Source of the DNA: Octopus vulgaris
Lineage: Eukaryota
Assembly (NCBI GenBank): GCA_951406725.2
Contig: OX597821.1
Location: 96,410,001 to 96,474,000, forward strand
Direction: 5' to 3'
DNA: 64,000 nt
A program made the translations under genes and the position numbers. The notes below the pieces were generated by a model, which had not been told where the DNA came from, did no database searches, and was given only the letters and a program-made list of their open reading frames with translations. This document shows, one piece after another, positions 1-33,076 of the stretch. Position 1 is the stretch's first letter. Every line of letters begins with the position of its first letter.

Positions 1-772
1 GACAGACAGGCAGATAGATAAATAGATAGATAGAGTATACGTAAATTCAAGAAAAAAGTACTCAATCCAGTGAGTAATAAATATCTATTTAATACATAAC
101 CAAAAGAGCTACTAATAGATTGATGTTTTTATGATACTTTAACTAAGCATAATTTTTCATCTTCGCAGTTTGTCCAAGACGTCTGAGCGCTCAGTGAATC
201 CTTGTTCCTATGAAACCTCTAACCCACCTATCTTTTACATGTAGGCACATTGTCTCCTGTCCATTGTTTCCACACAGTTAAAGCAACTCTCTGTGCGTAT
301 CACCTACCATCACAAACGACGAGGCCACGATAGTGTTCATACTTCATCGTTGCCGATGCGCGTGAAACCGTAGCCAACACAGTTACCATAATAACTATAT
401 CTACTTTTTTTAAAAGTAAAGAAATATATATCTACTTTTTTAAAGTCTGTGACCTACACATGCTTCCAAAAACTTCCAGTGCGTGAAATTAATAACAGTG
501 CTAGAAGTATAGTGAGAAAAGCATTCAGTTTCCTTTTTCTTTCTTTCTTTCTTTCCTTTATTTACATATGGATACCTGCTTGTGTGTGTGTATGTGTTTG
601 TGTGTGTGTGTTTTCTGTGCGGACATAAATGTCGATAAATAATTATTTCATTTATTAAAACAATAAAACAATTATATAGGAAATTATGTTAATTATATAT
701 CTGTGTGTATGCATGTATATGTGCATCCGTTGAGAGATATGCCCATGTCTATACATACATGTCTATATATAC

Positions 773-23373: not shown

Positions 23374-24023
23374 TAACAATAATAATAAAAGGGTAAAACT
23401 AATTAATTATTAATTAATTTTACCAAGTAGTGTTCAGTATGTAAAAAGACCATTTACGGTATATTTGAAACATTACGTTATAAAAATAGGGTTCAGTAAA
23501 ATAATTTACTTTACCACACACCGAACATTTTAGAAATAGCAGCCAAAAATCTTAACTATTTCTACTACTGTAAGAAAAATCTCCCAGACAATGCATACTC
23601 AGATAATGTATCACTCTGTAACTCACGTGGATTGATGGGGATGAATGCGAGGCCTCACTTGTATTTTGAATTCGTTGGTACTGGCGGTCGGATATGGTTT
23701 GTCTGGGATTACTCATACCAGACGGGTATGTTCGATTTTTAGTGCTCTCAAATCCAAACCATGAGAAATCTCTGAGCTGACGAAGGAAATGTTGATCTTT
23801 ATATTAAACTAATTCAGAAACGGGCCGTTCTCAGGTAATCTTATATACGTGTGATCTTTCGTTATTTTTCCCTCTATGCCTGTGTGAGTTATTTTTGAGT
23901 ATGCATTGTCTGGGAGATTTTTCTTACAGTAGAAGAAATAGCTAAGATTTTTGGCTGCTATTTCTAAAAAGTTTGGTGTGTGGTAAAGTAAATTATTTTA
24001 CTGAACCCTATTTTTATAACGTA
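23374..24023 (+). mobile_element. Penelope-like non-coding element with 128-bp inverted repeats, in (TA)n
   Basis: Arms 23474-23601 and 23896-24023 are reverse complements; there is an internal hammerhead and TA tracts on both sides. Confidence 0.7.
23772..23834 (+). ncRNA. Type I hammerhead ribozyme motif
   Basis: ctgag-CTGACGA-(33 nt, imperfect stem II)-GAAAC-gggcc-GTT-ctcag. Confidence 0.72.
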
Positions 24024-24849
24024 TATATATATATATATAAATATAAAACAGTACTGGGAGAATAAGAAACGGAACGAAGCGAAAGAATCGAATCGAACCC
24101 GACGCGAGGGCGCTGTCAAACAATAGTGTAATAAATAAAATATATGCATACATACAACCAAATATGTACGTACCTACATTTACATGTATATATACATGCA
24201 TATATAAATATATATACGTGAGTACAGGACACTACAACTAGACGTAGAACTCAACGAGAAACGAAAACTGAAAAGCCATTTTTTTACAACAGAAAAACAG
24301 AGTACAGGACATACTACACAAGGAAAAATCCCCTATCATCAGCTGATATATATATATAAACAAATCAAATACCAATCCCTCTAAAAGGACAATCTCTTGA
24401 ACAGTAACAAAACCACCATCCCATGCCATCCACACATTCAAAGCTGTTGCCAACGGAGCTTCAGCCACAATGAATTTTTTGATACATTCAGTGGCTACTA
24501 CCAACTACAGGCCACGTCAGGCAGTTAGTATGTTCTTGAAGCGAAGAAGTTGAATTTACTGAGACGATATCTGTATATCGCCTGACGAAACAGAACTAAA
24601 TTTCATAATGAAGGAAAACGGTTACAAAATCAAATACATGCAAACCTGGAGGACTACGTTGCGTAGGAGCAATTGTAGTGATTGCAGATAAAAGTCCAAC
24701 TGTACTCCTTCTTGTTGACTCCAACTCATTCAACATATATATATATAAGAGAACAAAATGGATATAATAACAATGGGAAACTCATGGTTTATGCTGGCAT
24801 GTCTTTAATTAAATAGGTAACAAAGAAGTAAGAAGCAGAGATGAGGGTG

Positions 24850-24900
24850 GCATTTACGATCGTTTCGATTTATTGAAGTAAGTAAATCTCTTCAGAATGC
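24850..24900 (-). ncRNA. Minimal type I hammerhead ribozyme motif, fully canonical
   Basis: Minus strand: gcatt-CTGAAGA-gattta cttacttcaa taaatc-GAAAC-gatc-GTA-aatgc. Confidence 0.88.
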
Positions 24901-26351
24901 GAGTATAAATAGATGCATCGGTTAGGATGCGAAAATGATTGATACATATGTGATGGTAATGTAAACAAATATGATTTTAGGTCAGTTACAATAAAATTAA
25001 TTTTACATTAATCTACAGTGTTTCTCTATATTTTTGTAAAGTACAATTTAATTATTCTTTTGTCAGAATAGTATTGAAAGCTACCGTTATTTAGCCTCTA
25101 CCTCCTACTGAGTATATAATGAGAAAATGCGTATATTTACAAATTTGTTGATAGTTACACAATGAGAAAGGAAAGAGGAGAAAAAAATGCTTTCTGGAAT
25201 TGTAATCTCTCTCTCTGTCTATCCCTTCCACATCCCACTCTTTGCTTTTCTTCATCTTTCTCGATTGTCCTTCTCCCTATTTTCCTCTCTTTCTGTCTTT
25301 CTCCCTTTCTCAAAATACAAAATATATTTTCATCTTCTAAACAAACGATATAATTGAAAAGAAATCTTTTTCTGTCGATCCCCCTCCTCTTTAATTTTAT
25401 TTATGTTTCTCGATGGTCCTGTTCCCTTTCTTCCTTTCTTTCTCCCTTTCTTTCTCCCTTTCTCCGAAAACCTAAAACTTTCTCTTCGATTCACCTAAAA
25501 CACGAGGAAACGTTCTGTTTTTATTATTTTGGTTTTCAATTTTTGTAATTGAAGAGTTCGATTAAACGAACGAAAGCGCTTATAAAGAATTATCCAAAAT
25601 TCTGACTGCCTCCTTTTTCCTAATATACAACATCTGTACATCACTTCAAACATTCTATACATACATACATCTCTCTCTCTCTACACACACACGCACACAG
25701 ACACTCACACATATATATATATACATACACACACAGACACACACATATATATACTCATACATACATACTTCTACTACATACACACATTATCTTGCAGTAT
25801 AAGTTCCCAAAATCCCTCCTTCACCTTTCCATATTCACGCAAACACTATTTGATAGAGATTTTTTTTTAACAGACATTAAAATAGACATGACATTATATT
25901 CGAACAGCGCACTTCATTTCAGAAATAAGTATTGAAATATACTATCCCGTTTTGAATAAATGAATATTATATATAATTTATTGTAATTTTAGCAATTATT
26001 TTTCCATAAAAAATTACACTTTATATAAGAATCATTATTCACCTCAGAATTAAGAGAGTTGTACCCCCTCCCCTAGTTACTTTCTTCCTGTTCCATAACA
26101 TCTCACCATTTCCATCTATTTAACATCCTTTCTTTTTCGTTCAAGTAGCAATATTTGACGAAATAGGAAGTAACAAATCTGCAATATAGACGGGGTATTG
26201 TAATGTAGATGAAGTGCAGGTAATTATTTTTCTATGAAACTTAATTGACACGTTCGAATATCTATGTCTTAAGTATTCTGTTCTAGAAATTGAGTTCTTT
26301 CTACCTACTTCAATATTCGCACAATAACTTTTTCTCTCGCTCTCTCTCACT

Positions 26352-31412: not shown

Positions 31413-32625
31413 CATCACCACCAACAACAACACTGGCAAATATAGGTAGGGAGAATAGAAGTGAAAAAAAAAATCAAATTGAAAACTAGCTACTGGATTA
31501 AACCATTAACTAGGTGGATTTATTGTCATGAAAGTATACTATTAATCGGTATTTAAATAGGATAAAGAGAGATTATGTCTGATGAATGACATTTTTATAA
31601 GTATATCACAGAGCAAAGCTACAGCTGATCGAATAAGCAAACGTCGGAGTACAAACCGGGCAGTTAGACGTTCCTGTACTCCAAACAAAACCCTTCACGT
31701 CCATTTCATTGCGAATAGGTTCCATACTGAGCCAAGGTTTATCGCGCTGCCTTCAGTAGGTACCGCATGTGGATACCATTCATTTTGGTGTAGATATAGG
31801 TATTGTATCTCAAACTATAAAGAGTACAACATGAGTACAACATGAGGATTTCCAATGGGCAACATGATGAGTACTTAATATTCTAAGTGATATTTATAAT
31901 AAAGCTTTCAAAGTAAAATATAATCTTTTGAGATGGGCTGATATAAAAAAAAAATTTCAACGTTATTTCAAAACTGGTACTTATTTCAACCTGTTCATGA
32001 GAATCGAAATGCAAAATCGACCCCAGTAGGATTGAAACTAAAATCATGAATAGGTTCTACCATCGACCACATTAATAAATAATTGTAATATTTTCATTGC
32101 TGGGTCACGAAGACTCATACAAAAATTACTAACGTGTCATGTAACAGGGTAACAAAGTGATTGGCAATATACATTTTGTAATAAACGGAGAGTAAGACAA
32201 AAAAGTTCATGCTATATATTACTACAGGTTACACATCGAGTAAACATAACAAACCTAATTGTAACAACACACCTAAATAGGACTGTGATGCAGTCCTCTC
32301 GGTGTGATCAGGATACCTCATGTCGCACCCCAACTTCCACTCCGATCAGTCTCTGTAAACTGGGCTCTCTAAAATCGTTATTAAGTGGTTTATATATCTA
32401 TATATATATATAGATAGATATTTGAGTAGTTGAATGAATTATCTTATTAAGGATAATTCGAATTAACCGATGCCTGGGTAGCAAATTCACATCAGAAAAA
32501 ACACGGTTGAATTACGTGCCTAGGGCATAGATTACGTGCTTTCGTGTGGAAATTTGTATGTTTATTTTGAAAATATAAATATATGAAAGAATGGAGCTGA
32601 ACGGCGAATTAACAAAATTCCTTTA

Positions 32626-32708
32626 TTTTCGACATATGTTTCGAAGGCTGCATATTCCTAATTGCGAAGGAATAAGGAGTACATTATGCCGCTTTCTCAT
32701 CAGGAAAA
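32626..32708 (-). ncRNA. Type I hammerhead ribozyme motif (mirror copy)
   Basis: Reverse complement of 32790-32872 with an intact core. Confidence 0.8.
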
Positions 32709-32789
32709 GCAAGGAACTTATGTCAACATCAAAATGTACAAAAAAACTGAGTTCTTTTGTGCATTTTGATGTTGACATAAGTTCCTTGC

Positions 32790-32872
32790 TTTTCCTGATG
32801 AGAAAGCGGCATAATATACTCCTTATTCCTTCGCAATTAGGAATATGCAGCCTTCGAAACATATGTCGAAAA
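32790..32872 (+). ncRNA. Type I hammerhead ribozyme motif with extended stem II
   Basis: ttttc-CTGATGA-gaaagcggcata...tatgcagccttc-GAAAC-atat-GTC-gaaaa. Confidence 0.82.
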
Positions 32873-33076
32873 TAAAGGAATTTTGTTAATTCGCCGTTCA
32901 GCTCCATTCTTTCATATATGTATATATATATATATATATATAATACAGGCACAAACAGCTATATGACTCTGTAATACTTTCTTGGGATAATTATATTTTT
33001 TCAGGGCGAAAGCTGTAGCCTTTGGTTTTCAATTAAAAGCATACATATAATATGTTATATTGATAATACACACAGA

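What the first reader, a model, noticed from the sequence alone, without database searches (positions are those of the whole stretch)
24745..25030. Textbook 51-nt hammerhead on the minus strand
Seen in sequence: 24850-24900 has a 5-bp stem I (gcatt/aatgc), CUGAAGA, a 6-bp stem II starting with G-C (gattta/taaatc), GAAAC, a GAUC palindromic loop and a GUA cleavage triplet, with no core deviation. It is the best candidate for a still-active ribozyme. Predicted cleavage is between 24855 and 24854.
Basis: partly seen in the sequence, partly recalled or inferred. Interest (0 to 1): 0.75.

Follow-up and report, generated by a model that had tools for sequence, protein, structure and literature searches.

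The report
Hammerhead in dead Penelope element end
This is a real hammerhead ribozyme motif of a known kind, at the end of a broken jumping-gene copy with hundreds of relatives in the genome; this copy is predicted to misfold, but related copies often begin right at the predicted cut site, which suggests the family's ribozyme once cut in living cells.

Summary
The motif is there as described (type I hammerhead, minus strand 24900-24850, predicted cut 24855|24854) and beyond chance. It lies in a 226-nt, 5'-truncated end of a Penelope-like retrotransposon of the Hydra clade: 431 candidate copies; longer copies carry RT and GIY-YIG with Hydra motifs and end on (TA)n. Such ribozymes are published, also for octopus Hydra elements. 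'Best candidate for a still-active ribozyme' is not supported: this copy has two changes in stem II and its loop that predict a core-sequestering hairpin (P stem II 0.06 against 0.8 or more in most siblings), 10 of 30 copies are better preserved, and it has no partner copy in the window. More interesting is the family: of 74 copies chosen by a 3' marker, 8 begin at positions 116-122 around the predicted cut (1.0-1.6 expected, P 1e-5 to 2e-4) and none in the 42 nt upstream. This suggests cut RNA served as template in vivo. The scan noted this footprint before in other genomes, with mixed strength. Cleavage itself is untested.

The parts
24745..24970 (-). 5'-truncated, tail-less 3' end (pseudo-LTR) of a Hydra-clade Penelope-like element; element position 1 = 24970
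   Evidence: 431 candidates, 40 scored, 90-95% identity over this span; siblings continue upstream into a GIY-YIG/RT frame and downstream into a ~140-nt tail and the ORF start
24850..24900 (-). Type I hammerhead ribozyme motif (element positions 71-121)
   Evidence: Rfam RF00163 18.6 bits, below gathering score
24889..24895 (-). Core strand C3-A9 (CUGAAGA), no deviation
24867..24888 (-). Stem II and loop II; 8 bp in the family, 6 contiguous bp here
24873..24876 (-). Two copy-specific changes (G>A at 24873, C>T at 24876) predicted to replace stem II by a UGAAG/CUUCA helix that ties up the core
   Evidence: 28 of 29 and 25 of 29 siblings carry the other letter; folds
24856..24863 (-). Self-complementary 8-mer: 2-bp stem III in a monomer, 8-bp duplex (-10.0 kcal/mol) in a dimer
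24854..24855 (-). Predicted cleavage site (element 116|117); 5' ends of sibling copies pile up here
24735..24747 (.). (TA)n tract at the element's 3' end, the likely target; shared with an unrelated older repeat ending at ~24733 from the other side

Best explanation
The motif is a type I hammerhead carried in a 226-nt end fragment of a Hydra-clade Penelope-like retrotransposon that ends on a (TA)n tract; in the parent element it likely cut the element's RNA as a dimer at 24855|24854, whereas this copy is predicted to misfold and is probably a slow or dead relic. Shown: sequence, copy family, link to the RT/GIY-YIG frame, two 3' ends (~230 and ~368), order hammerhead > end 1 > end 2 > ATG (~431), pile-up of 5' ends at the cut. 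Inferred: the two ends are two internal RT start sites (by analogy with the anole element, PMC11167929); RT starting there on RNA already cut at the hammerhead runs off at position 117 and leaves short stubs, while copies that reach past the hammerhead, like this one (it extends 116 nt upstream of the cut), need uncut or re-ligated RNA. Predicted: two intact motifs form a double hammerhead through the 8-mer; this copy's stem II is displaced.
For: Family: 431 candidates; 44 exact genome matches to core plus 7-bp stem II arms, 0 to the reversed control. Coding link: upstream frames with YIG, CxCX5C, CxxC, CxH, YRDD and DKT in a copy colinear with hammerhead-bearing copies, GIY-YIG look-alikes at cosine 0.95-0.96; tail runs into an ORF start with RWK in L191, a 72%-identical older relative. 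These are the Hydra features of PMC8557442 section 11. Ends: 22 of 30 first-set copies lack the same-orientation tail; 25 of 36 inverted arms end at 229-231. Cut footprint: 8 of 74 copies begin at 116-122 and 0 at 72-113; expected 1.0 (overall hazard, P 1e-5) or 1.6 (local, P 2e-4); top-ranked 9-nt window; all 8 come from 50 loci not seen in the first look; 8 of 31 inverted arms begin at 113-120 (on inspection 6 at about 118-120, 1 ambiguous, 1 at 114). Fold: intact siblings give the double hammerhead (-28.2 kcal/mol, P stem II 0.9-1.0, core unpaired 0.88-0.96), this copy -19.2, P stem II 0.08, core unpaired 0.32.
Against: No cleavage was measured. Nearest-neighbour folding ignores Mg2+, tertiary contacts and protein help; the gap to the active fold is 3.0 kcal/mol here against 1.9 in siblings, and the anole PLE hammerhead needs the element's protein to cut (PMC11167929). 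At 24873 and 24908 the contigs of run X2 (same organism label as the best holder) show only the family letter, so the lesion may not be fixed. The pile-up is 8 events; the 9-nt window was fixed after a first look at other loci had suggested it; a second, weaker cluster lies at 202-209 (7 ends) with no ribozyme there; the 3' strand of stem I (117-121) could stop RT or favour template switching without a cut. PMC11167929 found cleavage dispensable for insertion in vitro and no RNA reads ending at the site. Pfam gave no RT or GIY-YIG hit for these frames. No tree was built for the clade call.
Confidence: 0.8

Rival explanations
1. This copy is a still-active ribozyme that cuts a host or read-through transcript at this locus.
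For: All 12 core positions are intact, stem I has 5 bp and the palindrome is perfect; only 5 differences from the family majority in 226 nt; a contig of a run with another organism label (X5) bridges the 5' junction with 31 letters inside the element, so the insertion has persisted; the stem II change may be individual-specific.
Confidence: 0.12
2. The pile-up of 5' ends at 116-122 is caused by RNA structure or microhomology (RT stop or template switch at stem I), not by cleavage; the family ribozyme rarely cut.
For: The 3' strand of stem I covers 117-121; many of these copies have an inverted arm, a sign of template switching; earlier scan notes on other genomes found weak or no excess at the cut (e1-9850483, e1-9153559; not tested here).
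Against: No ends at the stronger 8-bp stem II (0 at 72-113, 4.5 expected); ends crowd at 117-119, the far side of stem I, rather than at its entry (121-122); the edge coincides with the site predicted from the motif alone.
Confidence: 0.3
3. The fragment is a non-autonomous retrozyme or SINE-like monomer rather than a piece of an autonomous element.
For: Most copies are short and non-coding.
Against: 5' ends are ragged and reach up to the RT frame; no tandem array at this locus or among the 30 first-set loci.
Confidence: 0.04
4. Chance match to a short motif.
For: Below the Rfam threshold; folding z-score +0.30.
Against: 0.03 hits per shuffled window; stems kept while loop II varies among 44 genome matches; position near the 3' end of a PLE, where such motifs are expected.
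Confidence: 0.01

Closest known systems
Hydra-clade Penelope-like elements, including Hydra-1_Obim (Craig et al. 2021, PMC8557442; read: passages, section 11, supplement hits)
   Same: RT with C-terminal GIY-YIG, RWK, DKT, CxCX5C, CxxC and CxH motifs, (TA)n targets, canonical hammerhead near the 3' end with a long stem II and a palindromic stem III.
   Different: Another family: the listed Hydra-1_Obim hammerhead has a different sequence and two 12-14-letter probes from this motif gave 0 hits in the supplement text (line breaks could hide a hit). The unit is about 3.6 kb (my sum over pieces of different copies) with Asn-rich inserts, against 'generally <3 kb'; the tail is ~140 nt, against 30-40.
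Minimal and palindromic-helix-III hammerheads in PLE pseudo-LTRs (Cervera and de la Pena 2014, PMC4209133; read parts 1-2 of 4)
   Same: Type I, helix I 4-5 bp, helix II 7-8 bp, G10.1-C11.1, palindromic helix III, mostly single motifs from truncated PLEs, dimer-dependent.
   Different: No extra nucleotide between A9 and G10.1 here; cephalopod family not covered in the parts read.
PAc, Poseidon PLE of Anolis (Frangieh et al. 2024, PMC11167929; read parts 1-2 of 4)
   Same: Two genomic 3' ends (pLTR end and tail end) downstream of the hammerhead, there shown to be internal RT start sites; AT-rich targets.
   Different: There the hammerhead overlaps the ORF start, cleavage was not needed in vitro and no RNA reads ended at the site; here the hammerhead lies ~315 nt before the ATG and genomic 5' ends pile up at the cut.
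Animal non-LTR retrozymes (bioRxiv 10.64898/2026.07.22.740005, part 1 of 5 read; PMC7229834, search listing only)
   Same: Type I hammerhead, PLE-related.
   Different: Those are non-coding tandem repeats; this is a dispersed, ragged fragment of a coding element.

Membership tests
Type I hammerhead ribozyme | Conserved core C3 U4 G5 A6 N7 G8 A9 / G12 A13 A14 / A15.1-U16.1 / H17 | tested here: met
Type I hammerhead ribozyme | Helices I and II can pair, helix I open | tested here: met
   5 bp and 6 bp (8 in family)
Type I hammerhead ribozyme | Stable helix III | tested here: inconclusive
   2 bp as monomer; 8-bp palindromic duplex as dimer, P 0.98
Type I hammerhead ribozyme | Active fold is the predicted ground state for this copy | tested here: not met
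   P stem II 0.05-0.08 as monomer, in context and as dimer; met for intact siblings as dimers
Type I hammerhead ribozyme | Rfam RF00163 gathering score (34 bits) | tested here: not met
   18.6 bits
Type I hammerhead ribozyme | Self-cleavage leaving 5'-OH and 2',3'-cyclic phosphate | not testable with these tools
   only indirect: genomic 5' ends at the site
Hydra-clade PLE | Single ORF, RT followed by C-terminal GIY-YIG | tested here: met
   in broken sibling copies; atlas GIY-YIG look-alikes; Pfam silent
Hydra-clade PLE | RWK near the N-terminus; DKG changed to DKT | tested here: met
   RWK in L191, DKT in L062
Hydra-clade PLE | CxCX5C linker; CxxC and CxH in the endonuclease | tested here: met
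   L065, L082
Hydra-clade PLE | CCHH motif absent | not tested
   no alignment to CCHH-bearing PLEs was made
Hydra-clade PLE | Insertion into (TA)n; hammerhead near the 3' end | tested here: met
Hydra-clade PLE | Phylogenetic placement of the RT | not tested
   no tree built
Hydra-1_Obim (same family) | Same hammerhead and 3' sequence | tested here: not met
Non-LTR retrozyme | Non-coding tandem monomers, each with a hammerhead | tested here: not met

The most novel reading that the evidence does not exclude
The family's genomic copies record hammerhead cleavage in vivo: both RT start sites lie 114 and 252 nt downstream of the cut, so RNA cut at the hammerhead yields only short stubs beginning at position 117, and gene-bearing copies must come from uncut tandem RNA or a ligated circle. 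The ribozyme would then define the RNA unit and also limit the element's spread.
Probability: 0.5. Interest if true: 0.55.

Novelty: new member of a known kind. Interest (0 to 1): 0.3.

Why it matters
The single motif is ordinary: one of hundreds of relic ends of a known class of retroelement. What has value is the family-level footprint. PMC8557442 calls the function of PLE hammerheads unclear and PMC11167929 found no in vivo sign of cleavage; a pile-up of insertion ends at the predicted cut gives a cheap, testable readout. It also tells a bench worker to test an intact sibling as a dimer rather than this copy. I did not find the footprint described in the four paper searches or the parts read; subscription papers, Repbase and bioRxiv supplements were not seen.

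Tried and rejected
Rfam at gathering level: nothing in the window. The repeat finder was swamped by microsatellites. Pfam found no RT or GIY-YIG in 9 sequences; PDB sequence search gave nothing useful. My first clade guess, Neptune (recalled), was dropped for Hydra. Expression: no RNA holder listed; in three runs guessed to be RNA (X15-X17) every contig covering 24873 carried the sibling letter, and a fourth (X13) had one depth-3 contig on the unique flank with 12 letters of the element; contigs show presence only, so this says nothing about silence of this locus. No empty-site joint was seen in four DNA runs; X6 misses the 31-letter bridging rule by one letter. Substitution rates (core 13/348, stems 21/754, outside 255/4785) were not used as proof of selection, because the copies were chosen by similarity and subfamily sites inflate the outside rate. 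A search for a tail-bearing partner in the window found none. The CTGACGA at ~24590 in the neighbouring repeat is not kept in 7 relatives and is not a hammerhead. No earlier scan note matched by place or sequence. L173 was dropped before the count as a duplicate of L172.

Full report
Observation. It is the only hit in the window at stems I and II >=4 bp; 100 shuffles gave 0.03 such hits per window and none at its stem lengths. Rfam sees it only weakly (Hammerhead_1, 18.6 bits, threshold 34), and the 51-mer alone folds no better than shuffles.

What it sits in. A search of the 2.8-Gb genome gave 431 candidates, 40 scored, 90-95% identical over window 24970-24745 only. I number the element from 24970 (=1): hammerhead 71-121, cut 116|117. 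In the 30 loci fetched, siblings extend upstream to ragged 5' ends; translation shows a GIY-YIG endonuclease end about 550-600 nt upstream of the hammerhead, and longer colinear copies carry RT pieces with YRDD and DKT. The endonuclease part matches GIY-YIG clusters in the atlas at 0.95-0.96; Pfam is silent. Homologues of a sister ORF include two Argonauta proteins and one named reverse transcriptase, in line with an octopus-like host (inference). RWK, DKT, CxCX5C, CxxC, CxH and (TA)n ends match the Hydra clade as defined in PMC8557442 section 11; an earlier scan note gave me that lead. The published Hydra-1_Obim has another hammerhead, so this is a different family. The 12 closest RT matches (66-100% identity) have open frames of 85-608 aa, none whole, while a sister family at ~61% has frames near 960 aa (150 of 5593 candidates scored). 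The family looks extinct; that is a lower-bound search.

Anatomy of the unit. Copies end on (TA)n either at ~230 or at ~368. In L191 and L190, older relatives at ~72% identity, the 230-368 tail runs on into the ORF start, ATG at ~431 in L191. Inverted 5' arms mostly end at 229-231 (25 of 36). This is the known PLE layout of pseudo-LTR, optional tail and inverted arm, and in the anole element the two ends are internal RT start sites. The window copy is tail-less, starts 116 nt upstream of the cut and has no partner in the window. A contig from a run with another organism label bridges its 5' junction (X5, 31 letters inside), so it is probably older than that split.

Is this copy the active one? 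It differs from the majority of 29 siblings at 5 sites, two of them in the motif. G>A at 24873 breaks the 7th pair of the family's 8-bp stem II; C>T at 24876 completes UGAAG/CUUCA, which pairs the core. Core intact: 22 of 30 copies; core, both stems and palindrome intact: 10 of 30, not this one. An exact pattern for core plus 7-bp stem II arms has 44 matches in the genome and 0 for the control; this copy is not among them. Against my reading: these are nearest-neighbour predictions, the gap to the active fold is only 1.1 kcal/mol larger than in siblings, and in run X2 no contig showed this copy's letter at 24873 or 24908, so the lesion may be a polymorphism or an assembly error. Published tests found a minimal PLE hammerhead inactive as monomer and weak as dimer, and the anole one protein-assisted.

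Did the family's ribozyme cut? A first look at 30 tail-bearing loci suggested crowding just downstream of the cut. I then took all 75 exact matches of a 22-nt tail marker, which does not depend on 5' extent, mapped their 5' ends and dropped one duplicate. Of 74, 8 begin at 116, 117, 117, 118, 118, 119, 120 and 122, and none at 72-113. Expected in the 9-nt window 114-122: 1.0 from the overall hazard (P 1e-5) or 1.6 from the local one (P 2e-4); it is the top window of all, and all 8 come from the 50 loci new to this step. Inverted arms: 8 of 31 begin at 113-120; on inspection six lie at about 118-120, one is ambiguous by microhomology and one starts at 114, before the cut. A second cluster at 202-209 (7 ends, lower hazard) has no ribozyme, and an RT stop at stem I cannot be excluded, though no ends fall at the stronger stem II. 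Earlier scan notes report the same footprint in other genomes, some strong, some weak; I did not test those.

Mechanism. Shown: motif, family, order of parts, end distributions. Inferred: the element's RNA was cut by dimeric hammerheads at 116|117; RT starting at 230 or 368 on cut RNA ran off at 117; copies passing the hammerhead, this one included, came from uncut or re-ligated RNA and were 5'-truncated at random. After insertion into a (TA)n tract this copy drifted, and it is now probably a poor ribozyme with no known transcript.

Verdict. Observation confirmed; new family of a known kind; 'still active' not supported for this copy. Interest 0.3, carried by the family-level footprint. Papers: PMC8557442 (passages, section 11, supplement hits), PMC4209133 (parts 1-2 of 4), PMC11167929 (parts 1-2 of 4), bioRxiv 10.64898/2026.07.22.740005 (part 1 of 5; its supplements not seen); others as search listings only. 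Hammerhead numbering and the double-hammerhead model are established knowledge, also described.

Noticed in passing
window 32573-32925: Near-perfect fold-back (176-nt arms, 98%); each arm carries a type I hammerhead of another family (cores at ~32795 plus and ~32703 minus) with a long bulged stem II and an ACATATGT palindrome; a related motif occurs in L086.
   Followed up: partly
window 24370-24733 (+): Older dispersed repeat (994 candidates, ~78% identity) ending on the same (TA)n tract from the other side; several relatives have inverted partners, as PLE ends do; no conserved hammerhead.
   Followed up: partly
window 23474-23601 and 23896-23996: Inverted duplication, 96-97% identical.
   Followed up: no
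L079, L080, L081 (G000 C8, C5, C2): Sister Hydra-type family with ~960-aa open frames; L081 has a minimal hammerhead ~250 nt upstream of the ORF start; a better subject for activity tests.
   Followed up: partly
window 24050-24335 and 24982-25014: Very high summed contig depth in four DNA runs, pointing to further high-copy repeats next to the element.
   Followed up: no
window 24735-24900, runs X16 and X17: One sibling subfamily (loop II TAAACC) gives contigs of depth 63 and 167 across the hammerhead in runs guessed to be RNA; these are not this copy.
   Followed up: no
L063:1533-1559: Another inverted pair of hammerheads with a GATTG/palindrome-like helix III, unrelated family.
   Followed up: no
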